DNA of 40,000 bases from Clostridia bacterium (GTDB lineage Bacteria; Bacillota; Clostridia; TANB77; UBA1234): positions 67,773 through 107,772 of the forward strand of contig JAFUGH010000014.1 of assembly GCA_017469465.1 (NCBI GenBank). The letters run 5' to 3'. Below, in pieces: positions 2,677 through 32,011 of this stretch (positions within the stretch are counted from its first letter, which is position 1; each line of letters starts with the position of its first letter). A program made the translations under genes and the position numbers. Under the pieces are notes generated by a model that did not search any database, had not been told where the DNA came from, and saw only the letters and a list, made by a program, of their open reading frames with translations.

Positions 2677-2720
2677 AAAGGTTATTTAATAGAAGATTTA
2701 ATAAGTAGAAAGGACAAACC

Positions 2721-3485
2721 ATGATTTATATTACAGGTGACACTCATGCAGATTTTTCAAGATTTGAAGATGGTAAATTTTCAATACAAAATGAAATGAC
2801 GAAAGATGACTTTGTAATCATTTGCGGTGATTTTGGTGGCGTATGGACTTATGAAATGGAAAGTATTTTAGAGCAAAAGAATTTAGATTGGCTTAATACT
2901 AGAAATTTTACTACACTGTTTGTAGATGGAAACCATGAAAACTATACAAGATTATATAATGATTATCCAGTAATAGAATGGCATGGTGGAAAAGTACATA
3001 AAATTAGAGATTCTGTATTACACTTAATGCGTGGAGAAGTTTTCGACATAGATGGAAAAACAATATTTGCATTTGGTGGTGCAAGATCACATGATATTCA
3101 AGATGGAATACTTAATTTAGATGAAGAGGAGAAGATATATGAATATCGAAAAAGAGGTGCATATTTTAGAATAAGAGATTATTCTTGGTGGGATTTAGAA
3201 TTGCCAACGGAAGCGGAAATGAAAAATGGAATTGCAAATCTGGAAAAGAATAATTTCAAAGTAGATTATATTATTACACATTGCTGCCCAACCAATGTTC
3301 AAACATTAGTAAATTTAAGATATAAAAAAGATTACTTAACTGATTATTTGCAAACGATAGCAGAAAAGTGTGATTTCAAAAAATGGTTCTTTGGACACTA
3401 TCACGAAAACAAACATATTAATCCTCAATACACATTGATATATGAAGGTATAGAACCATTGGAATATGTTAAAGAGTTCATATAA
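2721..3485 (+). CDS. calcineurin-like metallophosphoesterase
   Basis: Motifs GDTHAD, ICGDFGG, VDGNHENY and GHYH. SD AAAGGA lies upstream. Confidence 0.85.
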   Translation: MIYITGDTHADFSRFEDGKFSIQNEMTKDDFVIICGDFGGVWTYEMESILEQKNLDWLNTRNFTTLFVDGNHENYTRLYNDYPVIEWHGGKVHKIRDSVLHLMRGEVFDIDGKTIFAFGGARSHDIQDGILNLDEEEKIYEYRKRGAYFRIRDYSWWDLELPTEAEMKNGIANLEKNNFKVDYIITHCCPTNVQTLVNLRYKKDYLTDYLQTIAEKCDFKKWFFGHYHENKHINPQYTLIYEGIEPLEYVKEFI

Positions 3486-4151: not shown

Positions 4152-4155
4152 GATA

Positions 4156-4186
4156 GATGCCCTCGTTACTGAAGAGGGCATCTTTT
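4156..4186 (+). terminator. intrinsic terminator after vat (first part of repeated module, copy A)
   Basis: GATGCCCTC / GAGGGCATC stem followed by TTTT. Confidence 0.8.
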
Positions 4187-4267
4187 GCATTATAAGACTC
4201 AACTTTCATACTGATGATGACGTCAAATGTCAGTACAAAAATCAAATTGCAAAGTGCTAATCTTTCC

Positions 4268-4422
4268 TTGACAGTCTATCTACAGTCAACCCCACGGAAA
4301 ATACGGAAAATACGGAAAGAAAAACTAAGACACGAATCATACTTAGAGTGTCAGAAAACGTAAGCGTATCAGTGCATATATGGTAAAAAACAAAGAATTT
4401 CCCGAAGGCCTTAGTAAAAATT
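4268..4422. repeat. ~155-bp intergenic repeat element, copy A
   Basis: Starts CCTTGACAGTCTATCTACAGTCAACCCCACGGAAAAT... and ends ...CCCGAAGGCCTTAGTAAAAATT. It is homologous to 6436..6602 and 18833..18987. Confidence 0.8.
4294..4319. repeat. 9-bp tandem array ACGGAAAAT, about 3 units (copy A)
   Basis: ACGGAAAAT ACGGAAAAT ACGGAAAG read directly. Confidence 0.9.
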
Positions 4423-4462
4423 ACTACATCAAAAAAATTCTATATCTTGATACATATCGAGA

Positions 4463-4490
4463 TTGCAAAAACTTTCTTTTTTGATATAAT
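4463..4490 (+). promoter_or_regulatory. putative sigma-A promoter (TTGCAA, extended -10 TGATATAAT)
   Basis: TTTTTTGATATAAT at 4477-4490. The same 16-mer promoter core recurs at 13074-13090. Confidence 0.5.
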
Positions 4491-4552: not shown

Positions 4553-4645
4553 ATGCCACTCGGAGTAACAATAGCTATTATATTTGTAATTGAGGTTAGA
4601 ATTTATGCTGATTTGAAAAAGAGAAATAAATATTTATTAGAATAA
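4553..4645 (+). CDS. 30-aa hydrophobic/basic peptide (MPLGVTIAIIFVIEVRIYADLKKRNKYLLE), below the ORF-track cutoff
   Basis: Strong SD AAAAGGGAG 7 nt upstream of the ATG. It has one predicted TM stretch and a Lys/Arg tail. Its own promoter lies upstream and the shared terminator at 4722-4757 lies downstream. Confidence 0.4.
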   Translation: MPLGVTIAIIFVIEVRIYADLKKRNKYLLE

Positions 4646-5043: not shown

Positions 5044-5233
5044 AATGCTCAAATATAATTATATAGATTTGAAAAGAATAGCCATATGTCTTATAACATA
5101 CGACATAATATCATAGCTTATGCATTATGTCAACGTTTTTACGAAAACTTTTTCAATATTTTTCTGAACTTATACGTAATTCAATAATTTATTCGTTAAT
5201 TTTGATATCAAAGATAAAGTGCAAAAATCGTCA

Positions 5234-5262
5234 AAATAAAGTGCAAATATTGCACTTTATTT
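5234..5262. promoter_or_regulatory. perfect palindrome AAATAAAGTGCAA-ATA-TTGCACTTTATTT upstream of fic, with an extra half-site at 5214-5225
   Basis: 13-bp perfect arms. The direct copy ATAAAGTGCAAA lies 20 bp upstream. The site sits just upstream of the probable promoter (GGTATAAT at 5285-5292). Confidence 0.55.
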
Positions 5263-5313: not shown

Positions 5314-6369
5314 ATGGGTAAAAATAAAAATTGGAATGTGGAATTATCTGAATATATTAAGCAAGGTGAACCAACTAGAGTAGAAAAAACAAAAGCATGG
5401 GAAACAGCAATTGGGCTTCAGGATGTTGATGGATTGAAACCTTCTAAATATTTGATTAAAACAGCGAAAGAACATATTGAAGGAAATATTGATATTGCAG
5501 AAGCAAAGGAAAGAATTAATCAATACTACGAAGAAGTAGATAATAGGAAAAAGATAGAAGAGGAAAATGAAGAAGCGGATAAAGTTGCTGTTAGAATCAC
5601 TGAGATTTTAAGTGAGAAAACTTTTAGCTTTATTCCAAATGAATTATTAAATATTCATAAGAGATTATTTAATGGTATTTTTAAGGGTGCTGGAGTATAT
5701 AGAGATTATAATTTTACTAAAAAAGAATGGGTGTTAAATGGTGATACTGTTTTATATGCACCATTCGAAACGATAAAAGAGGCTTTAGAATACGACTTTA
5801 ATCAAGAAAAAGAGTTTTCATATAAAGACTTAGGTATGGAAGAAGCAGTTAAGCATATATGCAAATTTGTTTCAAATATATGGCAGGTGCATCCGTTTTG
5901 TGAAGGTAATACAAGAACGACAGCAGTATTTTTAATAAAGTATTTACGAACATTTGGATTTAATGTAAATGATGATATTTTTGCAGACAATTCATGGTAT
6001 TTTAGAAATGCTTTAGTGAGAGCAAATTATAAGAATTTTGATAAAGGGGTTTTTGAAGATATAACATTTTTAGAAAAATTCTTTAGCAATTTGTTAATGG
6101 GAACAAATTATGAATTAAAAAATAGATACTTGCATATCGATTATAAATCAGATACTGATGACAAAAAAATTAATGAGAGTAAATATACAATAGAAGAACA
6201 AGCAATCATTAATCTATTAAAAGACAATCCAACAATAAACCAAGAAGAAATTGCAAAACATATTGGCAAGTCTTTAAGAACAGTTAAAACATATATGTCT
6301 GAAATGCAGGAGAAAGGTATAATCGCAAGAAAAAATAGTAAGAAAAGTGGCGAGTGGATCATATCATAA
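5314..6369 (+). CDS. fic: Fic/DOC (Fido) family protein with C-terminal winged-HTH
   Basis: The Fic core motif is present as HPFCEGNTRTTA (canonical is HPFx[D/E]GNGRxxR). The C-terminus INQEEIAKHIGKSLRTVKTYMSEMQEKGII is HTH-like. SD GGAGG. Confidence 0.85.
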   Translation: MGKNKNWNVELSEYIKQGEPTRVEKTKAWETAIGLQDVDGLKPSKYLIKTAKEHIEGNIDIAEAKERINQYYEEVDNRKKIEEENEEADKVAVRITEILSEKTFSFIPNELLNIHKRLFNGIFKGAGVYRDYNFTKKEWVLNGDTVLYAPFETIKEALEYDFNQEKEFSYKDLGMEEAVKHICKFVSNIWQVHPFCEGNTRTTAVFLIKYLRTFGFNVNDDIFADNSWYFRNALVRANYKNFDKGVFEDITFLEKFFSNLLMGTNYELKNRYLHIDYKSDTDDKKINESKYTIEEQAIINLLKDNPTINQEEIAKHIGKSLRTVKTYMSEMQEKGIIARKNSKKSGEWIIS

Positions 6370-6387
6370 TAAACATTCAATTTATGG

Positions 6388-6418
6388 TGTCCTCATTATT
6401 GAAGAGGGCATCTTTTTT
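6388..6418 (+). terminator. intrinsic terminator after fic (repeated module, copy B)
   Basis: TGTCCTC / GAGGGCA stem plus a T-run. The right arm GAAGAGGGCATCTTTT is identical to the copy A terminator. Confidence 0.75.
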
Positions 6419-6435
6419 ATATATCAAGATCTACC

Positions 6436-6602
6436 TTGACAGTCTATTTACAGTTGAACCCACGGAAAATACGGAAAATATGGAAAATAGAGAAAATACG
6501 GAAAGCATAATCAAGTGTCAACCAAAGCTTAGAAACTCACCAACTTCGCCAATAGTAACTATTACATCAAAATTCAAAAGGACTACCCCGAAGGTATTAG
6601 TA
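6436..6602. repeat. ~155-bp intergenic repeat element, copy B (longer because of extra 9-mers)
   Basis: CCTTGACAGTCTATTTACAGTTGAACCCACGGAAAAT... to ...CCCCGAAGGTATTAGTA. Confidence 0.8.
6462..6505. repeat. 9-bp tandem array, about 5 units (copy B)
   Basis: ACGGAAAAT ACGGAAAAT ATGGAAAAT AGAGAAAAT ACGGAAAG. Confidence 0.9.
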
Positions 6603-6616
6603 TATCTATTATTATC

Positions 6617-6781: not shown

Positions 6782-6810
6782 TTGTAAACATACTTATTTT
6801 TTGATATGAT
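6782..6810 (+). promoter_or_regulatory. putative promoter of SLH protein 1 (TTGTAA-17-TATGAT with TG extension)
   Basis: Read directly. A homologous promoter lies at 19075-19103. Confidence 0.5.
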
Positions 6811-6835
6811 ATTTTTGAAATGAAAGTGCTAATTT

Positions 6836-6884
6836 TAAGAGGGTTAGATAGAATATGAAAAGAAGAAAATGAACCTTCCTCTTA
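6836..6884 (+). promoter_or_regulatory. conserved 5'-UTR hairpin with embedded mini-ORF (MKRRK*)
   Basis: TAAGAGGG ... TCCTCTTA stem around a conserved loop ..TTAGATAGAATATGAAAAGAAGAAAATGA... A homologous hairpin lies at 19126-19173. Confidence 0.5.
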
Positions 6885-6912
6885 AAGAAAATTTTAAAAG
6901 GGAGGATTTTTT

Positions 6913-8964
6913 ATGCATAGTAAATTAAAGTTTTTAGGTATGCTAATAATTGTTATCTCGATGGTGTGTTTTGTTCCAACAGTATTTGGTGCAAAAGAAA
7001 TATTTATAAATAAAACAATAGATAAAATTGTTATTAATTTTGACTATGAAGCATATCCAGCCAATACAACAAGAACTTATGGAGAATTAGCTAATGATTT
7101 ACGATATACTTATCCAAGGGATGCTTCATATTCAACTGATACCTATTGTTTTGTTGATTCAAATCATATAGGACTTAGTTATAAGAAAAATGGAGAAATA
7201 ATAGCTGTTCCTTATCCAGAATATGATAGTAAAATTAATGCAAATGATGAACTATATGTGTCTTACTGGATATATCCAGCAACAAGTAAAGGCTATGAAT
7301 TTGGTAGCTCTGAAGCAAAAGTAATATTTAACGATAAAGAACTACCAAAAACAGAATATGTATATAAAGATCGTTCTTCATTTATTTTACTTTATATCCA
7401 TATACCTATTATTGAAGGAACAAAAGTGGATAGAGTTTTATTCGAAGAGTTTGAACCTATATACGATGGTCAACAATACATTTCAAATGTGGAGATTGAT
7501 AATTCATTCGATGTTCCATGTACTATAACGAAACAAGGCTTTCTAATGTTTAATAAAGAATTAACTGGAACAGCTAAAAAAGGTGAAACAGTTGGGCAAT
7601 ATGTTATCGTAAAACTTGACGAAGGATATTATTGGGCTGATGATTCGATTGGTAGAATAGTTGGAACACGAAATACTTTCTCACAAGGCGAAAAAATAAG
7701 TGATAATGAATATAAATTCATATATGTCTATACAATTGAAAGCAAAAAAGATTTATTAGTAATTCATGATTTGCCAGATATCATAGAATACAAAGAAGGA
7801 GAAGAGGTTAAACTATCAATTTATGCTACTTCTGGTGCTACTAAAGTTCAATGGAATGAAGTAATTGATTTAGGAGGGAAAAAAGGAACCAAAGAAATTC
7901 CAATTGAAGGAGCAACAACTAATACTTTAGATTTAGGTAAGATTGATAATACTTACGATGGTAAACATTATAATATTGTTGCTTCGGATGATACAGGAGC
8001 AATTAGAAAATCTAAAACTTTTACTTTAAAATGTACTGGGGTTGTGGAAACAACGCAAATAGAACAACCTGCAAAAACTGAAACACCAACACACCAACCT
8101 ATACAAACAGAACAACAAAAGACTGAAGTTAAGTATAAAGTTGAATTTAATTCAAATGGCGGAAACATTGTTGCGACTCAAGAAGTAGCAGAAAAAGGAA
8201 AAGTAACAAAACCAGCTACTCCAACAAAAGATGGATATACATTTGATGGTTGGTATACGGATGAAAAATTAACAAAAGTATTTGATTTTAATACAGCAAT
8301 AAATAGTGATATTACTTTATATGCAAAATGGAATGTAACTAAAAAAGAAGAACAACCAACTATTTCAATAGAGCCAACAACAAATCCATCGCAACCAAAT
8401 GAAGGAAAAAAGGAAACTTGGAGCAATGCTTCAGAGTGGGCGAAAGAAGAATTATACAAAGTAAATGAAGAAAATCTAATGCCTTGGATATTTGACAAAG
8501 AGGATTTAACAGTAAATATTACAAGACGTGAATTTGCTTATGTAGCAGTAAAATTATATGAGAAGATAACGAATGAGAAGTTAGTAGAATCGAAAGAAAA
8601 TCCATTCATAGATACAAGTGATATTGAAGTTTTAAAAGCATATAATATTGGTATCACAAATGGTACATCTGCAACAACATTTTCACCAGATACTTTAATC
8701 ACTCGTGAGCAAATGGCAACAATGATGACAAGAGCGGTTTCAAAAGCAGAAATTGATACGAAAGTAGATTTAAGTAAGGTAAGTAAGTTCGCAGATGATA
8801 GCGAGATGCACGATTGGGGCAAAGAGTCAATCTACTTTATGTCTAACATAGAGATAATTAAAGGAATTGGAAATAACACGTTTAATGTATTGGGCAATGC
8901 GACAAGAGAACAAGCATTACTGATATCAGTAAGGAGTGCAGCAAAGTTTAGCAGTGCGAAATGA
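6913..8964 (+). CDS. secreted surface protein: signal peptide, Ig-like region, Listeria-Bacteroides (Flg_new) repeat, C-terminal SLH domains
   Basis: N-terminal signal LGMLIIVISMVCFVPTVFGA. YKVEFNSNGG...GYTFDGWYTD...ITLYAKW is a Flg_new repeat. SLH-like blocks are WA.E.., FSPDTLITREQMATMMTR and FADDSEMHDWGKESIYFM...GNATREQALL. Confidence 0.9.
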   Translation: MHSKLKFLGMLIIVISMVCFVPTVFGAKEIFINKTIDKIVINFDYEAYPANTTRTYGELANDLRYTYPRDASYSTDTYCFVDSNHIGLSYKKNGEIIAVPYPEYDSKINANDELYVSYWIYPATSKGYEFGSSEAKVIFNDKELPKTEYVYKDRSSFILLYIHIPIIEGTKVDRVLFEEFEPIYDGQQYISNVEIDNSFDVPCTITKQGFLMFNKELTGTAKKGETVGQYVIVKLDEGYYWADDSIGRIVGTRNTFSQGEKISDNEYKFIYVYTIESKKDLLVIHDLPDIIEYKEGEEVKLSIYATSGATKVQWNEVIDLGGKKGTKEIPIEGATTNTLDLGKIDNTYDGKHYNIVASDDTGAIRKSKTFTLKCTGVVETTQIEQPAKTETPTHQPIQTEQQKTEVKYKVEFNSNGGNIVATQEVAEKGKVTKPATPTKDGYTFDGWYTDEKLTKVFDFNTAINSDITLYAKWNVTKKEEQPTISIEPTTNPSQPNEGKKETWSNASEWAKEELYKVNEENLMPWIFDKEDLTVNITRREFAYVAVKLYEKITNEKLVESKENPFIDTSDIEVLKAYNIGITNGTSATTFSPDTLITREQMATMMTRAVSKAEIDTKVDLSKVSKFADDSEMHDWGKESIYFMSNIEIIKGIGNNTFNVLGNATREQALLISVRSAAKFSSAK

Positions 8965-8990
8965 CCCAAGTGGGACAACCTTTTTTGGTT
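8963..8990 (+). repeat. REP copy R1
   Basis: GACCCAAGTGGGACAACCTTTTTTGGTT. The TGA stop of the SLH gene (8962-8964) overlaps its left end. Confidence 0.85.
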
Positions 8991-9017
8991 AGCAACTCTT
9001 GTTTAATGGTGTCTATT

Positions 9018-9789: not shown

Positions 9790-10296
9790 ATGATTTTTAG
9801 GTTGGCATGTGTGAATGATTTGAGTAGTATAAAAACAATGTATGAGGAAATTATAGAGAATATGAATCAAAATAATATTTGTATTTGGAATGAGTATTAT
9901 CCGTTTGAATGTTTTGAAGGAGATATTAATAGTCAAAGGCTTTACGTACTGGAAGAAAATGATAGTATTGTAGCTGCATGTGCTTTGTGCGATTCTAATG
10001 AAGCAGAAAAAAATATGAAGTGGAAAAATGAAGAAGCCAGAGCTTTATATATTGATAGATTGGGAGTAAATGTAAATTATCAAGGAAAAGGATATGGTTC
10101 TTTGGTAATTAAAAATGTGATTGAGATAGCAAGAAAGAATCAATTTGAATATTTAAGACTATTTGTAGTAGATATCAATAATCCAGCGATTTGCTTATAT
10201 GAAAAGAATAGATTTGAAAAACTTAATGGAGTTTATGAAGAAAAGATAAATGAAAAAGTAACATTAAAAGAATATGCCTATGAAATGAAAATTTGA
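9790..10296 (+). CDS. GNAT family N-acetyltransferase
   Basis: LGVNVNYQGKGYGSLVIKNVIEIARK is the Q/RxxGxG/A motif. SD GGAGG. Confidence 0.85.
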   Translation: MIFRLACVNDLSSIKTMYEEIIENMNQNNICIWNEYYPFECFEGDINSQRLYVLEENDSIVAACALCDSNEAEKNMKWKNEEARALYIDRLGVNVNYQGKGYGSLVIKNVIEIARKNQFEYLRLFVVDINNPAICLYEKNRFEKLNGVYEEKINEKVTLKEYAYEMKI

Positions 10297-10321
10297 ACAA
10301 CTGGGACAACCTTTTTTGTTC
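10295..10321 (+). repeat. REP copy R3
   Basis: GAACAACTGGGACAACCTTTTTTGTTC. The stop TGA 10294-10296 overlaps it. Confidence 0.85.
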
Positions 10322-10350
10322 ACATCCACATATGGTCAGCATTAAAAAAT

Positions 10351-11482: not shown

Positions 11483-12106
11483 GTGAAGAAAAAAGAAAAT
11501 TATAATTATTTTACGGAGTTAATAACAATTACAGAGCATATAGTAAAATCTGCAGAAACTTTAAAAAATGTTATAGAAAACTTTAATCTAGAAAAATTAA
11601 ATATGGAAATTCACGAAGTTCATGGCTTAGAAAATGAAGCGGATAAGATAGTGCACACAATGAGAAACAATCTTGTCAAAGATTTTCTCCCGCCCATTGA
11701 TAGAGAAGATATTGCTCTTATTAGTCATAAATTAGATAATATAGAAGATGGAATAGATGAGGTATTAATTAATATAAAAATACTAGATATTACAGAAATA
11801 AGGGAAGAAGTAATAGAACTTGTAAATATATTACTTTCCTCTTGCAAGGTTGTGCAAGAAATATTTGTTGCATTTAATAATTTAAAAAATTTAGAGCTTG
11901 TGAGTCAAAAAGTAATTGACGTTAATCAATTGGAAGAGAAGGGAGATAGAGCATATGAAAAACTCATGACATCTTTATATAAAACTGAAAAGAACTCGAT
12001 CAATTTAATAAAATGGTCGAGCATATATAATTGTCTTGAAGAAACGATTGATAGTTGTGAAGAAATTGCTGATTCTATGCAAGATGTTGTGATGAAAAAT
12101 TCATGA
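11483..12106 (+). CDS. DUF47 / PhoU-like phosphate transport accessory protein
   Basis: GLENEADKIVHTMRNNL..FLPPIDREDI is typical of DUF47 proteins that follow PiT genes. Start set to GTG 11483 behind AAGGTGA. The track start at 11390 would overlap pit. Confidence 0.8.
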   Translation: MKKKENYNYFTELITITEHIVKSAETLKNVIENFNLEKLNMEIHEVHGLENEADKIVHTMRNNLVKDFLPPIDREDIALISHKLDNIEDGIDEVLINIKILDITEIREEVIELVNILLSSCKVVQEIFVAFNNLKNLELVSQKVIDVNQLEEKGDRAYEKLMTSLYKTEKNSINLIKWSSIYNCLEETIDSCEEIADSMQDVVMKNS

Positions 12107-12131
12107 CCAAGTGGGACAGCCTTTTTTGTTC
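12105..12131 (+). repeat. REP copy R5
   Basis: GACCAAGTGGGACAGCCTTTTTTGTTC. The stop TGA 12104-12106 overlaps it. Confidence 0.85.
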
Positions 12132-12165
12132 ACAAGGATAATTTTTTTGAAAGAGGGGATTATAA

Positions 12166-12909
12166 ATGAACAAGTATATTAATTTAACAGAGGAGAATAT
12201 GGAGGAAGAACATATTTGTTGTGCAATAGGAGATCCAAAACATCAAGAAGGTGTTGAGAAAAAGAAGGAATGGATGAAAAAGAAGCTAAAGGATGGCCAT
12301 GTTTTTAGAAGACTGGATGCGAGAGGAAAAATCTTTATTGAATATGAACCATTAGATACAGCTTGGGTACCAATTAGTGGTAAGAATTATGAGTACATAT
12401 ATTGTTTATGGGTTGCTGGTAGTTTTAAAGAAAAAGGGATTGGAAGAGAACTATTAGAATATGCGATTGATGATGCAAAGAAACAAAAAAGAAATGGTAT
12501 TTGTACTATTGTATCCAAAAAGAAAAAGCCTTTTATTGGGGATAAGAAATTTTTTGAACATTTTGGATTTGAAGTTGTAGATGCTATCTATGATTATGAG
12601 CTAATGGCTTTATCGTTCAAAAAAGGAGAAACACCTAAGTTTAATGAAATGGCAAGAAGTATGAAGATTAAGGATAAAGATTTTACCATTTATTATAGTA
12701 ATGAATGTCCATATGTAGAATACGAAGTGAAAGAATTATCCGATTATGCAAAGACTAATAAGATAAAAATTAATTTTGTTAAAATTGACTCTTTAAAGAA
12801 AGCAAAAGATGCTCCTTGTGTATTTAATAATTGGGCAAATTTTTATAAAGGAGAATTTATATCGAATACAATACTAAATGCAAATGCATTAGAAAAGTTA
12901 TTAAAGTAA
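12166..12909 (+). CDS. GNAT acetyltransferase with C-terminal YoaP-like domain
   Basis: WVAGSFKEKGIGRELLEYAIDDAKK is the GNAT motif. The C-terminus ECPYV....KIDS...A...PCVFNNWANFYKGEFIS resembles the YoaP-like domain. Confidence 0.75.
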   Translation: MNKYINLTEENMEEEHICCAIGDPKHQEGVEKKKEWMKKKLKDGHVFRRLDARGKIFIEYEPLDTAWVPISGKNYEYIYCLWVAGSFKEKGIGRELLEYAIDDAKKQKRNGICTIVSKKKKPFIGDKKFFEHFGFEVVDAIYDYELMALSFKKGETPKFNEMARSMKIKDKDFTIYYSNECPYVEYEVKELSDYAKTNKIKINFVKIDSLKKAKDAPCVFNNWANFYKGEFISNTILNANALEKLLK

Positions 12910-14023: not shown

Positions 14024-14067
14024 GATACATGTAACATCAAAAATGGTTACTCATGTTTAATATTTTT

Positions 14068-14094
14068 GACCAAGTGGGACAACCTTTTTTGGTC
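14068..14094 (+). repeat. REP copy R7 (consensus)
   Basis: GACCAAGTGGGACAACCTTTTTTGGTC. Confidence 0.9.
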
Positions 14095-14122
14095 AGCAAC
14101 ACTTGGGCAATGTCGAAAAATT

Positions 14123-17627: not shown

Positions 17628-18074
17628 ATGATGGCATTATTTGAGGTGTTTAAAGAAACATTTTTTGCATTTGTTGGTGCAAGATCACATGATATTCAAG
17701 ATGGAATACTTAACTTGGATGAAGAAGAAAAGATATATCAGTATCGAAAAAGAGGTACATATTTTAGAATAAGAGATTATTCTTGGTGGAATTTAGAATT
17801 GCCAACAGAAGAAATGCAAAGCGGAATCACAAAAATAGAAAAGCACAACTACAAAGTAGATTATATTATCACGCATTGTTGTTCAACAAATATTCATCCA
17901 TTAATCAATCTAGCATATAAGAAAGATTACTTAACTGACTACTTGCAAACAATAGCTGAAAAGTGTGATTTTAAAAAATGGTTTTTTGGGCATTACCATG
18001 AAAATAAATCAATTAATTCACAATTTAAATTATTATATGAAGATATAGTGCCAATAGAATACAACAGATGTTAA
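17628..18074 (+). pseudogene. 5'-truncated paralogue of the metallophosphoesterase at 2721..3485
   Basis: From about 17650-17665 onward the DNA is visibly highly similar to 3050-3470 (FAFVGARSHDIQDGILNLDEEEKIY...KKWFFGHYHEN). The N-terminal GDxH / GD / GNHE metal-binding motifs are absent. Confidence 0.8.
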
Positions 18075-18100
18075 AATTTATTTTTTTAATAGGTGATAGT

Positions 18101-18741
18101 ATGAAAGAAACAACAATTTATCTTATCAGACATTCAGAGCAAGTTAAACCAATTGAGGATTTGTATGACACAAAACTTTCACAGCTTCAAAATGAAATGA
18201 ATGCATTATCGAAAAATGGAGAATTACTTGCCAAAAAATTAAGTGAAGAAAAAGAATTGCAAAATATTGATATATTATATTCGAGTCATTATGAAAGAGC
18301 AATTGCAACTGCAAAATATATAGCAGAACAAAATAATATAAAAATGAATATTGATACAAGACTACGGTGAAAGAAAATTGCGGCAATTTAAACAATTTGA
18401 AGCAACTTGAAAAGCTATTTGATAATAGCTTTTCAAAAGAACAATTATTGAATGAAAATCTGAAGAATAATGAAGGAGAATCTAATATTGAGGTTAGAAA
18501 AAGAATGGTATCAGCAATCAATGACGTTTTGGAGAATAATTATGGCAAAAGAGTTGCTATCGTGTCACATGGTGCTGCTATAAAATTCTATCTTCAGAAT
18601 TTTTGTAAATTTGATAGTTCAAAGGATGTTTTTTATTTTAAAGGTAAAGAAGTAGGTCCTCTTCAAATAAAGTCACCTAGTGTTTTAAAATTACAGTTTA
18701 ATGATAATGATCTTATGAAAATAAAAGTAATCAATATTTAA
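18101..18741 (+). pseudogene. histidine phosphatase (phosphoglycerate mutase-like) family gene split by a frameshift near 18365
   Basis: The first half carries TIYLIRHSEQ (RH motif), ending at TGA 18368-18370. The second half (frame of 18367) carries GES..EVRKR...VAIVSHGAAIK (second catalytic His). Confidence 0.75.
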
Positions 18742-18780
18742 TAAACGAAATTTATTACAATTTAAAGTAACATATATACA

Positions 18781-18807
18781 GATGCCCTCACTAGTAGTGC
18801 TGGCATC
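18781..18807 (+). terminator. degenerate terminator-like hairpin (repeated module, copy C)
   Basis: GATGCC ... GGCATC. It is homologous to the copy A left arm GATGCCCTC but lacks a T-run. Confidence 0.35.
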
Positions 18808-18832
18808 TGTCATACTTACTCTAAAATACCAC

Positions 18833-18987
18833 TTGACAGTCTATCTACAGTCGACCTCACGGAAAATATAGAAAATACGGAAAGCAAAATCGAGTTCAAA
18901 GCAATGTTTAGAAAGTCAGTAACTTAGCCAATATCAATTGATTTAAGGAAAAATCAAAGGTATAGCTAGAAGTCCTTAGTAAAAATT
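18833..18987. repeat. ~155-bp intergenic repeat element, copy C
   Basis: ACTTGACAGTCTATCTACAGTCGACCTCACGGAAAAT... to ...AGTCCTTAGTAAAAATT. Confidence 0.8.
18859..18884. repeat. 9-bp tandem array, about 3 units (copy C)
   Basis: ACGGAAAAT ATAGAAAAT ACGGAAAG. Confidence 0.9.
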
Positions 18988-19074
18988 GAACAAGACATAT
19001 TAAACAAAAAACTAGATATAGGAAGAGATTAGCTTCGACTGCTAAAAATAACAGGTAATATTTATGATTTCTTG

Positions 19075-19103
19075 TTGAAAAAAGACATATTATTTGATAT
19101 TAT
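19075..19103 (+). promoter_or_regulatory. putative promoter of SLH protein 2 (TTGAAA-17-TATTAT with TG extension)
   Basis: Read directly. It is positionally homologous to 6782-6810. Confidence 0.45.
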
Positions 19104-19125
19104 ATTTTTGGTTTAAGAAATTATT

Positions 19126-19173
19126 TAAGGGGATTAGACTAAATATGAAAAGAGAAAATGATTTTTCCTCTTA
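19126..19173 (+). promoter_or_regulatory. conserved 5'-UTR hairpin with embedded mini-ORF (MKRENDFSS*)
   Basis: TAAGGGGA ... TCCTCTTA stem. The loop ..TTAGACTAAATATGAAAAGAGAAAATGA.. is homologous to 6836-6884. Confidence 0.5.
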
Positions 19174-19206
19174 AACAAATAATAAAAAATGAGGGGGAGT
19201 TTTATA

Positions 19207-21339
19207 ATGAAAAAACTTGTGCTTTTAGCAACTTTAGTTTTGACAGTATGTATTTTTTTAGTTCCAAGCATTTGTCTTGCAGATGCTGCAGGCAGTTACT
19301 CTTTGTCTTCAGTATTCGTTACAATGACTGAACCAAAGTTTAACACAGTATTACCTACTGACATGACGGCTAGTAGTAAAAATATTACTATTAGTAATGT
19401 TGTCTGGAAAGATTCATCCAGTAAAACTTTAGCAAATACAGACAAAATAACAGCAGGTGGAACTTATACTGTGACATTTGATTTAAATAGAGTAGCAGGA
19501 GATAGTTTTGCTGGACGTACTTCAGTATATATTAATAATAGTGCTGAAGGAGTTTCAAAAACGAGTGTATCTTCAAATAAAATGACAGTTTCTAAATCAT
19601 TTACTGTACAAGGTGGAAGACTAAGTAATGCCAATGGTAAAGCTCAATTTATGGAAGGAGGAGAAGCCTCTACAGCTACAACAGCAGATGGTAAAAAAGT
19701 ATTAGGACTTTTAGTTTTCTTAATTGACGGTAATGTTGAAGAAGGTAAGGCACTACCAACTTCTTTCCAACTTAAAACAGATTTAGATACAACATTTAAA
19801 AAGTATAATATTTATAAAACATCACCAAGTGATACTTCTAAACCTTATGCAGTTTGGCAACAATATGATGAAAATGCACAAGCAGATAAGTCATATACTT
19901 TAAGATATATATTCCCAATTCCGGGTGATGTATCAGTTGCTGATGATTGCCAAATTTCAATTGACGGAAACAAAGTTTCTAAAGCAGGATTAATGGGTAG
20001 TTTATTCTTTGATCAAACATATAAAACAGGTGCATCAAAGACTGCATCAGAAATTAAATACGTTTCTAAAGTAGAATTTGAAAACTTTACGTGGCCAGTA
20101 GATGGACAAAAATATGAAACAAGTGTTAAATTGAAAGATGGATTTCCGGGCAAAATAACAAGATATACATTCGAAATGTTTAGAAAATCTTTAAATGGTA
20201 CAGCTGCATCAGCAGGAGATAACATCGGGTTGTGTATATATGTAGATTTAAATGATGGCTATCAATGGGCTGATGAAAAGAACGGATACTTAAATGGTCA
20301 AATACAAGATATGAGAATTCATAATGATAGCATGGGCACTGAATGGGGGTTTGCTTGGAATGAGCATAGAACAGAGTATACAGATAAAATAAAAATAGAA
20401 GATCAATCGCCAGAAACACTAGAATATGTTGAAGGTGAAGATGTTAAACTATTTGTTAAAGCAACAGGAGCAGATACATATCAATGGGCTAAATATGGAA
20501 CAAGTGGTGGCGGAATAAAACAAGTATTTAGAGCAAGTAAGATAGATGGCGCTACAAAGAATGAATATGTAATTGAAAAAGCTTCAAAAGATTTGGATGG
20601 AGCACAATATGAATGCGAACTTAAGACAAGTGCAGGTGAAAGACTTGTTTCAAAAACAATTAAATTAAAATTAGTTGAGAAGAAGACCGAACAACCAGCT
20701 ACTGTACCAACTGCAACATCAGGTGAGCAACCAACTACTACCACAGGTGGAGAACCAGCTACTGTATCAACAGAGCAACCTACAACGCCTGAAAGAACTT
20801 GGTCGAAAGCATCTGAATGGGCAGTTGCTGAATTAGATAAAGCAAATGAAGCTAATTTAATTCCTTGGATATTTGAAAAAGAAGATTTAACAAAAAATAT
20901 AACAAGAAGAGAATTTGCATATGTTGCAGTAAAACTATATGAAAAAATTTCAAATGAAAAACTTGTCGAGGCAAAAGAAAATCCATTCACAGATACAAAT
21001 GATATTGAAGTATTAAAGGCATTAAATGTTGGTATTACGAATGGTACATCAGATACAACATTTGATCCAAATGCATTAATTACTCGTGAGCAAATGGCAA
21101 CGATGATGACAAGAGCATTAACCAAAGCAGGAATTGATACAAAAGTAGATTTAGAAAAAGTTTCTAAATTTGCTGATGATAGCGAGATGCACGATTGGGG
21201 TAAGGCTTCAATCTACTATATGTCTAGCATTGAAATCATTAAAGGTGTTGGAAACAATACATTTAATGTATTAGGAAATGCCACAAGAGAACAGTCTTTA
21301 TTAATAAGCGAAAGAAGTGCAGATAAGTTCAGCCATTGA
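19207..21339 (+). CDS. secreted surface protein paralogue with Ig-like region, Thr/Pro-rich linker and C-terminal SLH domains
   Basis: Start moved to MKKLVLLATLVLTVCIFLVPSICLADA behind GAGGGGGAG. The C-terminal ~180 aa are close to those of 6913..8964 at both protein and DNA level. Confidence 0.9.
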   Translation: MKKLVLLATLVLTVCIFLVPSICLADAAGSYSLSSVFVTMTEPKFNTVLPTDMTASSKNITISNVVWKDSSSKTLANTDKITAGGTYTVTFDLNRVAGDSFAGRTSVYINNSAEGVSKTSVSSNKMTVSKSFTVQGGRLSNANGKAQFMEGGEASTATTADGKKVLGLLVFLIDGNVEEGKALPTSFQLKTDLDTTFKKYNIYKTSPSDTSKPYAVWQQYDENAQADKSYTLRYIFPIPGDVSVADDCQISIDGNKVSKAGLMGSLFFDQTYKTGASKTASEIKYVSKVEFENFTWPVDGQKYETSVKLKDGFPGKITRYTFEMFRKSLNGTAASAGDNIGLCIYVDLNDGYQWADEKNGYLNGQIQDMRIHNDSMGTEWGFAWNEHRTEYTDKIKIEDQSPETLEYVEGEDVKLFVKATGADTYQWAKYGTSGGGIKQVFRASKIDGATKNEYVIEKASKDLDGAQYECELKTSAGERLVSKTIKLKLVEKKTEQPATVPTATSGEQPTTTTGGEPATVSTEQPTTPERTWSKASEWAVAELDKANEANLIPWIFEKEDLTKNITRREFAYVAVKLYEKISNEKLVEAKENPFTDTNDIEVLKALNVGITNGTSDTTFDPNALITREQMATMMTRALTKAGIDTKVDLEKVSKFADDSEMHDWGKASIYYMSSIEIIKGVGNNTFNVLGNATREQSLLISERSADKFSH

Positions 21340-21346
21340 ACGAAGT

Positions 21347-21396
21347 GACCAAGTGGGACAACCTTTTTTGACCAAGTGGGACAACCTTTTTTGGTC
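21347..21396 (+). repeat. tandem REP doublet R11-R12, left flank of the RAYT gene
   Basis: GACCAAGTGGGACAACCTTTTTT GACCAAGTGGGACAACCTTTTTTGGTC. Confidence 0.9.
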
Positions 21397-21432
21397 ATTT
21401 GAATGACATACTTATCGACATAATCTGAAGCA

Positions 21433-21538: not shown

Positions 21539-22294
21539 ATGCCTAGAAAACCTAGATATTATAATACATCAGATTTTTATCATATTATGGTACAAGGAGA
21601 TGAAAAGAAATATATTTTTAAACACGATAAGTATAAAAGAAAATATCGATATTTATTGAAACATAATGCAATGAAAAATGATGTTGAAATTATTTCATAT
21701 TGCATAATGAATAATCATGTTCATGTATTAGTTTTTTGCCCTGAAATTAAAAGAATATCTAAAATGATGTTGCAGATTAATACTTCATTTGGCTTGTATT
21801 ATAATAATGATCGACAAAAAGTGGGTCATGTTTTTAGAGAAAGATATAGGGCAGAAGCAATATATACTAAATACCATCTAATAAACTGTATAAAATATAT
21901 TCATGAAAATCCAGTTAAGGCAGGAATATGTAGGAAATGTAATGAATATATGTATTCAAGTTATCAAGAAATTTCTAAAGTAAGTAATAGTCTATTACAA
22001 ATTTGTGATATTTCCACTAATGAGTTAAATAATATTCTTAATTCTCCACATACAGAAAGTAAATTTATTGATGATGATAGTGAAAAGGAGGATGTTGAGA
22101 AAGTTTTTGTAGAAATAAAGAGGAGAAAAGATATTAAAGTAGAGGATACTAAATATATTTCAGAAATATATTGTGAAATAAAAAAAAGATGCAAAGTAAC
22201 GGATAGCCAAATTGCAATTTTGTTAGGAATTGAGAGAAGCAAATTCTTAAGAATGCTTAGAAAAGAAGGAATTAAAAAAGTTGTTCATAGATAA
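21539..22294 (+). CDS. REP-associated tyrosine transposase (RAYT; IS200/IS605 TnpA-like HUH Y1 enzyme) with C-terminal HTH-like tail
   Basis: MPRKPRYY..DFYHIMVQG, the HUH motif NNHVHVLV, GHVFRERYRAEAI and YIHENPVKAGI match the COG1943/RayT pattern. Confidence 0.85.
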   Translation: MPRKPRYYNTSDFYHIMVQGDEKKYIFKHDKYKRKYRYLLKHNAMKNDVEIISYCIMNNHVHVLVFCPEIKRISKMMLQINTSFGLYYNNDRQKVGHVFRERYRAEAIYTKYHLINCIKYIHENPVKAGICRKCNEYMYSSYQEISKVSNSLLQICDISTNELNNILNSPHTESKFIDDDSEKEDVEKVFVEIKRRKDIKVEDTKYISEIYCEIKKRCKVTDSQIAILLGIERSKFLRMLRKEGIKKVVHR

Positions 22295-22306: not shown

Positions 22307-22364
22307 GACCAAAAAAGGTTGTCCCGTTTGGTTAAAAAAGGTTGTCCCGTTTGGTTACTTGGTC
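22307..22364 (-). repeat. tandem REP doublet R13-R14 (inverted), right flank of the RAYT gene
   Basis: Reverse complement reads GACCAAGTAACCAAACGGGACAACCTTTTTTAACCAAACGGGACAACCTTTTTTGGTC. Confidence 0.9.
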
Positions 22365-24020: not shown

Positions 24021-24055
24021 CCAAGTGGGACAACAAATAGTGACAAATTTTGGTT
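24019..24055 (+). repeat. REP copy R15 (interrupted)
   Basis: GACCAAGTGGGACAAC, then a 13-nt insertion, then TTTTGGTT. The stop TGA 24018-24020 overlaps it. Confidence 0.6.
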
Positions 24056-31729: not shown

Positions 31730-32011
31730 ACAACATCTTTATATTTGATTTATTAAGAGGATGAACTAAAACAGATATAATTAAGTGGGACAATAATTAT
31801 TTAAAATATTCGTAGGTAATGTACTTTTTATTTCCTTTATGATAAAATAACTCTGAAATAAAATTTACAAATCTAGTTATTGCTTATTTGTAAGTAATGA
31901 ATATTATGAAGAACAATCACAAGGAATAGCTATACTGAATAAAAAAGTCAAAGTAAAGCAACAAAGGAGTTCTTAAAAATATTAATGAATCAATAGAAAG
32001 GATGGGTAAGT

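What the first reader, a model, noticed from the sequence alone, without database searches (positions are those of the whole stretch)
4156..4422. Three-copy intergenic module: terminator + ~155-bp conserved element beginning TTGACAGTCTATCTACAGTC and carrying a 9-bp tandem array
Copies lie at 4156-4422, 6388-6602 and 18781-18987. All share the following: (a) a related terminator hairpin (GATGCCCTC / GAGGGCATC type); (b) CCTTGACAGTCTATCTACAGTC, which contains ACAGTC twice at 11-bp spacing; (c) tandem ACGGAAAAT units; (d) a ~90-nt weakly conserved stretch (..TTAGAAA.TCA..AACTT.GCCAATA..); and (e) a conserved end CC(C)GAAGG..TTAGTA(AAAATT). No frame is open across all three copies, so the element is non-coding. 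The TTGACA has no -10 partner at 16-18 nt, so it is not an obvious sigma-A promoter. Each copy sits 3' of an accessory gene (vat, fic, histidine phosphatase) and 5' of a TG-extended promoter. The iteron-like repeats suggest a protein-binding platform (regulator or recombinase arm sites) or a structured RNA. I do not recognise it as a described element.
Basis: seen in the sequence. Interest (0 to 1): 0.65.

Follow-up and report, generated by a model that had tools for sequence, protein, structure and literature searches.

The report
New head–array–tail intergenic DNA repeat
The three copies are real members of an undescribed, lineage-restricted, non-coding DNA repeat found between accessory genes of an uncultured low-GC Clostridia-like bacterium; it resembles the composite repeats already known in other bacteria and shows no sign of being an RNA, so it is a modest rather than a startling find.

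Summary
Three same-strand copies lie at 4263-4425, 6431-6608 and 18830-18990. Each has a 149-172 nt "head – 9-mer array – body – tail" element after a related terminator hairpin.

The family is real but narrow. I found 10 further loci in metagenome contigs from related low-GC organisms. I found none with the exact head 19-mer in the 185,579 species-representative genomes, and none in plasmids, phages, viral contigs, Rfam or the literature.

Across 11-12 copies the body is only 55-75% identical. The roughly 36-nt head TTGACAGTCTATYTACAGT..A.C..A...AAAATA is nearly invariant, and the tail motif CCCGAAGG is conserved. The 9-mer count varies from 3 to 5, even between orthologous copies.

Several readings failed their tests:
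- No conserved RNA structure or covariation on either strand.
- No conserved open frame.
- No standard sigma-A promoter.
- No terminal inverted repeats and no target-site duplications.
- The head does not form a stable hairpin.

Best reading: a composite interspersed DNA repeat, analogous to pneumococcal BOX or Porphyromonas BrickBuilt. Its selected head, two 11-bp direct repeats plus a fixed A-rich hexamer, is a site for a sequence-specific DNA-binding protein. It probably acts on transcription of the downstream gene. Novelty: a new member of a known kind. Interest is moderate to low.

The parts
4155..4183 (+). Copy 1: terminator-type hairpin AGATGCCCTC-N9-GAGGGCATCT followed by TTTT, just after the vat-like gene (stop at 4151)
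   Evidence: Inverted repeat, 10/10 complementary. DNA fold -10.5 kcal/mol, z = -4.7. Same hairpin family at copies 2 and 3 and in L032, L038 and L040, with a compensatory GCCCTC/GAGGGC to GACCTC/GAGGTC change.
4268..4293 (+). Copy 1 head: TTGACAGTCTATCTACAGTCAACCCC. It is two 11-bp direct repeats, (G/T)ACAGTC.A.C, and also an imperfect 9-6-9 palindrome.
   Evidence: Exact pattern hit. These columns are invariant across 11 copies.
4294..4318 (+). Copy 1: 9-mer array, ACGGAAAAT x 2.8
   Evidence: Tandem Repeats Finder.
4319..4425 (+). Copy 1: body and tail. The body includes CTTAGAGTGTCA, which is inverted relative to the head. The tail is TTTCCCGAAGGCCTTAGTA.
   Evidence: nhmmer envelope 4263-4425. 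Alignments. Head/body inverted repeat counted.
6387..6411 (+). Copy 2: hairpin GGTGTCCTC-N9-GAGGGCATC followed by TTTTTT, after the fic gene (stop at 6369)
   Evidence: -3.8 kcal/mol, with G-T pairs. Conserved in the orthologous contig L076.
6436..6608 (+). Copy 2 element: head 6436-6461, array ACGGAAAAT x 4.8 at 6462-6504, then body and tail ending in CCCCGAAGGTATTAGTA
   Evidence: (nhmmer 6431-6608, E = 2e-46).
18778..18810 (+). Copy 3: imperfect hairpin ACAGATGCCCTCACTA/TAGTGCTGGCATCTGT with no T-run, after the frameshifted histidine-phosphatase gene (stop at 18741)
   Evidence: 16 nt, 88% complementary. (-11.5 kcal/mol, z = -5.0).
18833..18990 (+). Copy 3 element: head 18833-18858, array x 2.8 at 18859-18883, then body and tail ending in CTAGAAGTCCTTAGTA
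   Evidence: (nhmmer 18830-18990, E = 7e-37).
4463..4490 (+). Promoter-like site downstream of copy 1 (TTGCAA-16-TATAAT with TG). It lies outside the conserved element.
6782..6810 (+). Promoter-like site downstream of copy 2 (TTGTAA-17-TATGAT with TG), 174 nt after the element. It precedes the leader and the SLH gene 6913-8964.
   Evidence: Leader paralogous to that of copy 3.
19075..19103 (+). Promoter-like site downstream of copy 3 (TTGAAA-17-TATTAT with TG), 85 nt after the element. It precedes the leader and the SLH gene 19189-21339.

Best explanation
The finding is a lineage-restricted, non-coding composite interspersed repeat that acts as double-stranded DNA.

**Layout**
- A terminator hairpin inherited with the module.
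- A variable spacer.
- A head of about 36 nt: two 11-bp direct repeats (G/T)ACAGTC.A.C, which embed a perfect TTGACA, followed by CCCA and a fixed RAAAATA.
- A slippage-prone array of 3-5 A-tract 9-mers.
- A drifting body of about 70 nt that carries an inverted partial copy of the head.
- A conserved tail, CCCGAAGGyCTkAGTA.

**Shown**
- The head is kept almost unchanged in copies whose bodies have diverged by 25-45%, so it is under selection or repeated conversion in place.

**Inferred**
- The head is the recognition site of a sequence-specific DNA-binding protein. Two half-sites one helical turn apart suit a head-to-tail dimer such as an OmpR/PhoB-type winged-helix regulator.
- The phased A-tracts bend the DNA. 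About 18 degrees per tract at a 9-bp period gives a net bend of roughly 40 degrees for four tracts (my own calculation).
- The complex modulates transcription into the co-directional downstream gene. It would work as a portable, insulated, regulator-dependent promoter or operator module, as reported for BOX and BrickBuilt elements.
- The module spreads by recombination or segmental duplication, or by a mobilisation in trans that is still unknown.
For: **Real and dispersed.** There are 3 copies in the window. Further copies at non-orthologous sites with unrelated flanking genes lie in L032, L038, L039, L040, L051, L054 and L059, twice in L071, and in L076.

**Sharp limits.** Closely related copies (L032/L038 at 88%, c2/L054 at 82%, c1/L071B at 77%) lose homology right after TAGTA / GGTCTGA. 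They also lose it upstream of the head or the hairpin.

**Selection on the head.**
- 32 of the first 38 alignment columns are invariant, plus four more at 90% or above, in 11 copies whose overall pairwise identity is 54-89%.
- Five copies found without using the head as bait also have intact heads. These are the 3 window copies and the 2 L071 copies found by full-length profile.

**Which feature is invariant.**
- The direct repeat is what is kept. Copy 2 loses the palindrome (ACAGTTGA) but keeps ACAGT-N6-ACAGT.
- As a hairpin the head is negligible: -2.2, 0 and -0.6 kcal/mol.

**Array behaves as a slippage tract.**
- It has 3-5 units.
- One unit differs between c2 and its ortholog in L076, at 92.6% overall identity.
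- Units degenerate to AYAAAAAAT, keeping the A-tract period.

**Position and polarity.**
- The element always sits after the upstream gene's terminator-like hairpin; 9 of 10 loci have one.
- It is co-directional with the downstream gene in 9 of 10 loci where that gene is visible.
- It lies upstream of that gene's own promoter-like site.

**Not RNA, not coding.**

**Literature analogues with the same head-array-tail plan and regulatory or promoter effects.** BOX (PMC3049150) and BrickBuilt (PMC4596501).
Against: - No binding protein, transcript or regulatory effect has been observed. Everything about function is inference from anatomy.
- The -10-like RAAAAT is weak. It sits 23 nt from TTGACA, so no ordinary sigma-A promoter is formed.
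- The distance to the downstream promoter-like sites varies from about 20 to 175 nt. That is unusual for a position-dependent activator site.
- No stand-alone copies of the direct-repeat motif occur elsewhere in the 40-kb window, so there is no sign of a wider regulon. L032 has one extra pair.
- Seven of the related copies were retrieved with the exact head as the search pattern. That inflates the apparent head conservation.
- The mode of spread is unknown: no terminal inverted repeats, no target-site duplication, no linked transposase.
- Conservation of the tail and of the body motif CTTAGA is not explained by the model.
Confidence: 0.45

Rival explanations
1. It is a selfish non-autonomous mobile element, MITE-like or BOX-like, with no host function. 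An enzyme encoded elsewhere recognises the conserved head and tail as element ends, and the body drifts.
For: - Copies lie at non-orthologous sites with sharp boundaries.
- The ends are more conserved than the interior.
- The element lives in a highly mosaic accessory-gene array that also holds a RAYT-like transposase with its own REP-like repeats.
- Subfamilies are shared between organisms: c1 with L071B, c2 with L054.
Against: - There are no terminal inverted repeats between head and tail. The only inverted repeat pairs the head with the body.
- There is no target-site duplication. The same-copy flank match is 4.0 nt against 3.99 for cross-copy controls.
- No related autonomous element appears in genomes (exact head 19-mer), plasmids, phages or viral contigs.
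- The three window copies are old (64-71% identical) yet keep intact heads. Dead copies of a selfish element would not.
- Copies 2 and 3 look like part of a larger segmental duplication, not independent insertions.
Confidence: 0.22
2. It is a site-specific recombination site, attC-like, res-like or cer-like, that marks cassette junctions. The imperfect 9-6-9 palindrome would be the crossover core. The 9-mers and the body half-site would be accessory or arm sites. Directly repeated copies would allow excision and shuffling of the genes between them.
For: - The architecture fits: core plus adjacent direct repeats plus bent DNA, about 150 bp in all.
- All copies are in direct orientation, 3' of co-directional accessory ORFs.
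- The window and L071 arrays are mosaics of the same ORF-sized blocks in a different order.
- Fic is flanked by two copies in both organisms.
Against: - Breakpoints between related contigs fall at window 3513, 5178-5255 and 6363-6371, not in the head.
- No integrase or resolvase is linked. The only recombinase seen is a large serine recombinase about 20 kb away, beside a tRNA gene.
- Copy 2 lacks the palindrome.
- No attC-like folding is found.
- Most junctions in the array carry a different repeat, or none.
Confidence: 0.1
3. It is a small RNA or cis-acting RNA, on either strand. One candidate is a minus-strand transcript from the TTGAC[GA]-17-TATTTT site inside the body. Another is a 5' leader of the downstream gene.
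For: - A minus-strand sigma-70-like site scoring 10 of 12 is called in copy 2 at 6521-6493.
- The same arrangement can be read in 7 of 12 copies (alignments).
- BOX and BrickBuilt elements are transcribed.
Against: - There is no Rfam family even at E<=10.
- RNAalifold finds no structure beyond 7 pairs and no compensatory changes on either strand.
- No terminator follows in either direction.
- The minus-strand promoter is absent from c1, c3, L039, L040, L071A and L071B.
- On the + strand the element lies between a terminator and the next promoter-like site.
Confidence: 0.07
4. It is a neutral relic with no function: left-over intergenic DNA copied along with neighbouring genes by segmental duplication and horizontal transfer.
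For: - Copies 2 and 3 share the downstream promoter, leader and SLH gene at 71-79% identity, consistent with one old duplication.
- Copy number in the sampled DNA is low.
Against: - The head would be expected to carry about 10 substitutions at the divergence seen in the body. It carries 0-3.
- The same module is joined to unrelated genes on both sides in at least 8 loci.
Confidence: 0.08

Closest known systems
BOX elements of Streptococcus pneumoniae (boxA - boxB(n) - boxC) (PMC3049150)
   Same: - A small non-coding composite intergenic repeat.
- A conserved 5' module, a tandem array of variable copy number, and a conserved 3' module.
- Array length varies between strains at the same locus.
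- Proposed or shown effects on expression of neighbouring genes.
   Different: - BOX modules are 45-59 nt. Here the tandem unit is only 9 nt and A-rich.
- BOX has terminal inverted repeats resembling those of ISSpn2 and a strongly base-paired predicted RNA.
- This element has neither.
- There is no sequence similarity.
BrickBuilt MITE/minisatellite of Porphyromonas gingivalis (PMC4596501)
   Same: - A leader - tandem repeat - tail plan.
- Always intergenic.
- Species-restricted.
- About 20 copies or fewer.
- Segments have promoter activity.
   Different: - BrickBuilt has a 23-nt unit and small inverted-repeat ends.
- It comes from a different phylum, and there is no sequence similarity.
- Promoter activity is untested here.
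Pho-box-type operators of OmpR/PhoB-family response regulators (my own knowledge, not tested here: E. coli CTGTCAT-N4-CTGTCAT; B. subtilis PhoP TT(A/T/C)ACA-N5 repeats; WalR TGTWAH-N5-TGTWAH)
   Same: - Two direct half-sites with an 11-bp period.
- The reverse strand reads CTGTAGA-TAGA-CTGTCAA.
- The site overlaps a -35-like hexamer, and an A/T-rich hexamer lies about 8-10 bp downstream.
   Different: - No cognate regulator has been identified.
- The site is embedded in a 150-170 nt repeat.
- No other sites of the motif occur in the window.
- Orientation relative to the putative -10 is opposite to that of classical pho boxes.
REP/REPIN sequences with their RAYT transposase (PMC2817692, PMC3337134)
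   Same: - Short intergenic repeats 3' of genes.
- A RAYT-like gene (21539-22294) and its own REP-like repeats share the same array.
   Different: - The head is not a stable hairpin.
- The sequence is unrelated to the GGGACAACC repeats that flank the RAYT-like gene.
- The element is much longer than a REP sequence.
Integron attC sites / Vibrio cholerae repeats (my own knowledge)
   Same: Repeats at the 3' end of co-directional accessory ORFs in a mosaic array.
   Different: - No attC-type imperfect palindrome or folding.
- No integrase.
- Only a minority of junctions carry the element.

Membership tests
MITE | Terminal inverted repeats at the two ends | tested here: not met
   Inverted-repeat search of 9 copies finds no head-tail pair. 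The only recurrent inverted repeat pairs the head with body columns 100-109.
MITE | Target-site duplication flanking each copy | tested here: not met
   The longest word shared by the 14-nt flanks of the same copy averages 4.0 nt, against 3.99 nt for cross-copy controls.
MITE | Small, non-coding, multiple copies at non-orthologous sites | tested here: met
   The element is 149-172 nt. There are 13 loci with unrelated flanks. Stops occur in every frame in some copies.
MITE | A parent IS with matching ends | tested here: inconclusive
   None appears in genome, metagenome or viral scans for the head or tail, nor in plasmids or phages. The host genome itself could not be searched as a whole.
BOX-like composite repeat | Conserved 5' module, tandem array of variable number, conserved 3' module | tested here: met
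   Alignment of 11-12 copies. Arrays of 2.8-4.8 units. The ortholog in L076 differs by one unit.
BOX-like composite repeat | Strongly base-paired predicted RNA or ssDNA structure | tested here: not met
   The RNAalifold consensus is -3.7 and -3.8 kcal/mol, with 7 pairs and no covariation.
REP / REPIN | Short stable palindromic hairpin | tested here: not met
   The head folds at -2.2, 0 and -0.6 kcal/mol, no better than shuffles.
REP / REPIN | Flanks or matches the repeats around a RAYT gene | tested here: not met
   The RAYT-like gene 21539-22294 is flanked by GGGACAACC-type repeats, not by this element.
Structured non-coding RNA (sRNA, riboswitch, leader) | Match to a described RNA family | tested here: not met
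   Rfam 15 at gathering score finds only a tRNA at 37976-38046. At E<=10 the hits are chance-level and none covers the element.
Structured non-coding RNA (sRNA, riboswitch, leader) | Conserved secondary structure with compensatory changes | tested here: not met
   No pairs with changes on both sides, on either strand.
Structured non-coding RNA (sRNA, riboswitch, leader) | Own promoter and terminator, and a discrete transcript | not testable with these tools
   Only consensus scans are possible. No + strand promoter is called at the head. A minus-strand site occurs in some copies only. No expression data were available.
Sigma-A promoter | A -35 and a -10 hexamer 16-18 nt apart | tested here: not met
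   TTGACA has no -10 partner at 16-18 nt. The scan calls nothing at 4268, 6436 or 18833 on the + strand.
Integron attC / cassette recombination site | Imperfect inverted repeats folding into an attC-type hairpin | tested here: not met
   No long-range pairing is found.
Integron attC / cassette recombination site | Linked integrase, and recombination breakpoints at the site | tested here: not met
   No tyrosine recombinase is present in the window plus flanks. Breakpoints with L005, L071, L072, L075 and L076 lie elsewhere.
Iteron-type replication origin or centromere | Sequence-conserved iterons next to a rep or par gene | tested here: not met
   The 9-mers degenerate to AYAAAAAAT in relatives. 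No Rep or Par protein is encoded nearby.
OmpR/PhoB-type response-regulator box | Two direct half-sites one helical turn (10-11 bp) apart | tested here: met
   ACAGT-N6-ACAGT is invariant in all 11 aligned copies. There are 3 hits against 0.23 expected in the window.
OmpR/PhoB-type response-regulator box | A cognate regulator binds the site and activates an adjacent -10 | not testable with these tools
   No regulator has been identified. A fixed RAAAATA lies 8 nt after the second half-site, but its function is unknown.

The most novel reading that the evidence does not exclude
The head-array-tail modules, together with the REP-like GGGACAACC repeats that overlap the stop codons of neighbouring ORFs, would be the junction sites of an integron-like cassette system in an uncultured Clostridia lineage. 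An unidentified recombinase, or the RAYT-like HUH enzyme encoded in the array, would excise, capture and reshuffle ORF-sized accessory genes. The invariant head would be its recognition site. This would explain why the window and contig L071 carry the same ORF-sized blocks (Fic, YoaP-GNAT, CYTH, metallophosphatase) in a different order.
Probability: 0.07. Interest if true: 0.8.

Novelty: new member of a known kind. Interest (0 to 1): 0.32.

Why it matters
If the head is a regulator-binding site carried on a portable module, it would show how horizontally acquired accessory genes in an uncultured gut or rumen-type Clostridia lineage get wired into a host regulatory circuit. The genes in question include surface SLH proteins, Fic, restriction-modification and toxin-like genes. 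The module would arrive as a ready-made "terminator + operator/promoter" cassette.

It also gives a compact 36-nt probe for fishing out the binding protein.

If it is instead only a selfish or relic repeat, its value is practical. It is a marker for strain typing through the variable 9-mer number. It is also a source of assembly breaks in these metagenomes.

Tried and rejected
**1. CsrA- or Hfq-type RNA sponge (tandem ACGGA motifs).**
- The GG is not conserved in related copies, where the units read AYAAAAAAT.
- No RNA evidence exists.

**2. Structured RNA on either strand.**
- There is no structure or covariation.
- There is no Rfam match.

**3. Small protein or pseudogene remnant.**
- The frame open through copy 2 and L054 has stops in copies 1, 3 and L032.
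- A protein-database search with the translated element found nothing. That search was wasted.

**4. Standard or MerR-type sigma-A promoter on the + strand.**
- The spacing to any -10-like hexamer is 23 nt.
- By eye I also saw no ECF, sigma-D, sigma-H or sigma-54 pattern that holds in all subfamilies.

**5. REP-like ssDNA hairpin for an HUH enzyme.** The head's hairpin energy is negligible, and the hairpin is absent in copy 2.

**6. MITE.** There are no terminal inverted repeats and no target-site duplication.

**7. Plasmid or phage origin.** There is no match in PLSDB, INPHARED or IMG/VR.

**8. Head motif hits outside the family.**
- The three genome hits (L001-L003) and 27 of the 34 metagenome hits lack the rest of the element.
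- They sit in unrelated, often GC-rich or coding, contexts.
- The Gudongella hit (L002) lies inside the 3' end of an ArsA-like reading frame (my reading).
- I treated all of these as chance.

**9. Long-range head-body pairing as an RNA helix.** It is present in 74% of cells, but with no covariation and a shifted partner in subfamily B. It is better read as a DNA inverted repeat.

**10. Association with the Fic-HTH gene.** It is seen in the window, L071 and L076, but the last two were retrieved through Fic, so the sample is biased. L072 and L075 have Fic without the element.

**11. Literature string search.** A search for the core and the 9-mers gave no papers.
Full report
**1. Checking the observation**

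The three regions were read directly.
- The 20-mer TTGACAGTCTATCTACAGTC occurs at 4268 and 18833 exactly, and at 6436 with two mismatches. All three are on the + strand. No hit occurred in 100 dinucleotide-preserving shuffles.
- A repeat search recovers the three copies as one 76-nt family. It also recovers the related upstream hairpins as another family.
- Tandem Repeats Finder reports ACGGAAAAT arrays of 2.8, 4.8 and 2.8 units.
- The hairpins at 4155-4183 and 18778-18810 fold well as single strands (-10.5 and -11.5 kcal/mol, z about -5). The one at 6387-6411 is weaker at -3.8 kcal/mol.
- Upstream genes are a Vat-like hexapeptide acetyltransferase, a Fic protein with a C-terminal winged helix, and a frameshifted histidine phosphatase.
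- TG-extended promoter-like sites follow each copy at 4463-4490, 6782-6810 and 19075-19103.

The description is therefore accurate. A profile built from the family finds exactly these three copies in the window, at 4263-4425, 6431-6608 and 18830-18990. It finds none in about 14 kb of extra flank fetched from the source contig and a related one.

**2. Where the window comes from and what surrounds the copies**

- The window matches a 120.9-kb metagenome scaffold at 99.9% identity. Near-identical contigs occur in several other samples.
- The DNA is low in G+C.
- A related contig carries sporulation genes (SpoIIP, SpoVS). The nearest named Fic homologue is from a 'Clostridia bacterium' MAG.
- The first 24 kb of the window is a co-directional array of accessory genes.
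- The array is mosaic. A related contig, L071 (Fic 89% identical at the DNA level), carries several of the same ORF-sized blocks in a different order.
- The Fic gene has different neighbours in L072, L075 and L076.

**3. Is the family wider than three copies?**

Searches that found nothing:
- An exact-pattern scan of one genome for each of 185,579 species found only three hits to the head. None has the rest of the element, and I judge them to be chance.
- Plasmid, phage and viral collections gave nothing.
- Full-text search for the sequence strings gave nothing.

Searches that found copies:
- The metagenome scan gave 34 hits. Seven carry the whole element: L032, L038, L039, L040, L051, L054 and L059.
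- L071 has two more copies flanking Fic-PRiA4.
- L076 has the ortholog of copy 2.

The family is therefore real, confined to a narrow uncultured lineage, and undescribed. The three window copies are only 64-71% identical to one another, so they are not a recent duplication. Copies 2 and 3 share the downstream promoter, a leader hairpin with a mini-ORF, and paralogous SLH genes at 71-79% identity. They therefore probably descend from one old segmental duplication whose left edge is the module's hairpin. Copy 1 belongs to another subfamily, whose nearest relative is L071B at 77%.

**4. Anatomy from 11-12 copies**

- *Hairpin.* A terminator-type hairpin of one family (AGATG.CCTC ... GAGG.CATC TTTT) is present in c1, c2, c3, L032, L038, L040 and L076, and in a related form in L071B. 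It shows a compensatory change between GCCCTC/GAGGGC and GACCTC/GAGGTC. It is replaced by a different hairpin in L039 and is absent in L071A. Unrelated insertions of 65-90 nt separate it from the head in c1, L040 and L071B. One more hairpin of this type, at 17351, has no element after it.
- *Head.* The consensus is TTGACAGTCTATYTACAGTCAAMCCCAYRRAAAATA. Of the first 38 alignment columns, 32 are invariant.
- *Array.* There are 3-5 nine-mers. They read ACGGAAAAT in the window but AYAAAAAAT in subfamily B. What is conserved is the A-tract at a 9-bp period, not the unit sequence. The ortholog of copy 2 in L076 has one unit fewer.
- *Body.* About 70 nt, 55-75% identical, in three subfamilies. It has a conserved CTTAGA that forms an inverted partial copy of the head. 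The head and body pair in 74% of cells, against 17-39% when the partner is slid, and there is no covariation.
- *Tail.* CCCGAAGGyCTkAGTA, after which homology stops abruptly.
- *Length.* From TTGACA to TAGTA is 149-172 nt.

**5. What it is not**

- *Not a described or structured RNA.* Rfam at gathering score and at E<=10 gives nothing on the element. RNAalifold on either strand finds only seven pairs of the head palindrome, at about -3.8 kcal/mol, with no compensatory change.
- *Not coding.* Every frame has stops in some copies. A protein search with the translated open copy found nothing.
- *Not a normal sigma-A promoter.* Nothing is called at the TTGACA on the + strand. The nearest -10-like hexamer is 23 nt away.
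- *Not a REP-type hairpin.* The head folds at -2.2, 0 and -0.6 kcal/mol, no better than shuffles. Copy 2 has lost the palindrome altogether.
- *Not a MITE by the usual criteria.* There are no terminal inverted repeats and no target-site duplications (4.0 against 3.99 nt in controls).
- *Not demonstrably a recombination site.* Homology breakpoints between related contigs lie at window 3513, 5178-5255 and 6363-6371, not in the element. No integrase is linked.

**6. What it most likely is**

The informative fact is the contrast between the head and the rest.
- At the divergence seen in the body, a neutral 28-36 nt stretch would carry about ten substitutions. The heads carry zero to three.
- Seven copies were retrieved using the head as bait, so they say nothing on this point.
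- The three window copies and the two L071 copies were found by similarity over the whole element, and they too have intact heads.
- The head is therefore maintained in place. That argues for a function as double-stranded DNA, because neither an RNA nor a hairpin is supported.

The feature kept in every copy is not the palindrome. It is a pair of direct repeats 11 bp apart, (G/T)ACAGTC.A.C, followed at a fixed distance by RAAAATA. Two half-sites one helical turn apart are the usual target of head-to-tail dimers such as OmpR/PhoB-type response regulators. That comparison rests on my own knowledge of those families and not on a test here.

The element always sits after the upstream gene's terminator. 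In nine of ten loci it points toward a co-directional downstream gene.

My preferred model has three parts:
- It is a portable 'terminator + operator or weak promoter' module whose head binds a specific protein.
- Its A-tract array bends the DNA and changes length by slippage.
- Its effect is on transcription entering the downstream accessory gene.

All of the functional steps are inference.

The published composite repeats BOX (boxA - boxB(n) - boxC) and BrickBuilt (leader - 23-nt array - tail) have the same ground plan. Both have reported regulatory or promoter activity (PMC3049150, PMC4596501). Unlike this element, they have inverted-repeat ends and, for BOX, strong predicted structure.

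**7. Rivals**

- *A selfish mobile element.* This remains possible, given the sharp ends, the unrelated flanks, and subfamilies shared between organisms. It lacks terminal inverted repeats, target-site duplications and a parent element. It also does not explain intact heads in old copies.
- *A cassette-junction recombination site.* This is the most interesting reading and fits the mosaic array, but it has no positive evidence.
- *An sRNA.* A minus-strand promoter-like site exists in 7 of 12 copies (for copy 2). Structure, terminator and universality are all missing.
- *A neutral relic.* This is contradicted by the conservation of the head.

**8. Verdict**

The finding is real and undescribed. 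It is a new member of a familiar class, the lineage-specific composite intergenic repeats. Its function is unproven, and the structured-RNA reading is not supported. Interest is moderate to low. The neighbouring REP/RAYT-like system and the ORF-sized mosaicism of the array may deserve as much attention as the element itself.

Noticed in passing
window 21539-22294, with repeats at 8960-8992, 10291-10323, 10361, 12101-12133, 14064-14096, 14133, 21343-21398, 22311-22356 and 24015-24047: A 251-aa IS200-like Y1 protein scores just under the NCBIfam cutoff for REP-associated tyrosine transposase (73 bits against 80). It is flanked by two forward and two reverse copies of a repeat of about 30 nt, TGACCAAGTGGGACAACCTTTTTTGGTCA. 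The same repeat follows many genes of the array, twice as inverted doublets about 57 nt apart. This looks like a REP/REPIN-RAYT system in a Clostridia-like genome.
   Followed up: partly
window 8962-8964, 10294-10296, 12104-12106, 21337-21339 and 24018-24020: In five cases the TGA stop codon of the upstream ORF lies inside the 5' arm (TGACCAA / TGAACAA) of the REP-like repeat. The repeat therefore supplies or overlaps the stop codon. The gene-repeat junction is strikingly precise.
   Followed up: partly
window 1-24000 compared with L071 (also L072, L075, L076): The accessory arrays of the window and of a related contig share ORF-sized homology blocks in a different order and with different neighbours. 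The blocks are Fic, YoaP-GNAT 12157-12909, CYTH 31999-32543, and metallophosphatase 2696-3137. Block edges lie within about 10-130 nt of start and stop codons, giving a cassette-like mosaic with no integrase seen.
   Followed up: partly
window 4553-4645 (+), with a minus-strand terminator-like hairpin at 4561-4543: This is a 30-aa hydrophobic ORF with a basic tail (MPLGVTIAIIFVIEVRIYADLKKRNKYLLE) behind a strong ribosome-binding site, just downstream of copy 1. An antisense terminator-like hairpin overlaps its start. The arrangement is reminiscent of a type I toxin-antitoxin locus. There is no family hit.
   Followed up: no
window 6800-6912 and 19090-19188: The two paralogous SLH surface-protein genes share a leader with a 9-bp stem (TTTAAGAGG ... 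CCTCTTAAA). The stem encloses a mini-ORF (MKRRK* / MKRENDFSS*). This may be an attenuation or translation-control leader. It has no Rfam match.
   Followed up: no
window 5205-5262; L071 9895-9945; L076 about 470-530; L040 1045-1090: A repeated motif, ATAAAGTGCAA, is followed by a palindrome, AAAGTGCAAAWWTTGCACTTT. It lies just upstream of the Fic-HTH gene promoter in every Fic context, which makes it a candidate autoregulatory operator. In L040, L051 and L059 it occurs directly upstream of the element's head.
   Followed up: no
window 18068-18741: The histidine-phosphatase gene upstream of copy 3 is split into two overlapping ORFs (18068-18370 and 18367-18741). These match the N- and C-terminal halves of His_Phos_1, so this is a frameshifted pseudogene or a sequencing error.
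   Followed up: no
window 37976-40000 (L068 7292-9155): A tRNA gene is followed by a large serine recombinase, called as two ORFs (Resolvase 127 aa plus Recombinase 506 aa), and by a protein kinase gene. This is probably an integrated element at the tRNA.
   Followed up: no
window 3513 (L005 6288): In one sample the vat-like gene and everything to its right is joined to a completely different left flank (DarA_C, sortase). The breakpoint is at the vat start codon. A second contig from the same sample carries the window's arrangement. This is either strain variation or a second copy.
   Followed up: partly
L032 3031-3050: About 90 nt downstream of the element in L032 there is a second, stand-alone pair of direct repeats, GACAGTCTGTTGACAGTCT. 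The period is the same 11 bp. It lies upstream of an MmeI-like restriction-modification gene. It is the only head-like site found outside a full element.
   Followed up: partly
window 2721-3485 and 17628-18074: A metallophosphoesterase-like gene (254 aa) upstream of vat has a truncated paralog (79-92% DNA identity over 3058-3466 against 17656-18061) upstream of the histidine-phosphatase gene. Copies 1 and 3 therefore both lie two genes downstream of related sequence.
   Followed up: no
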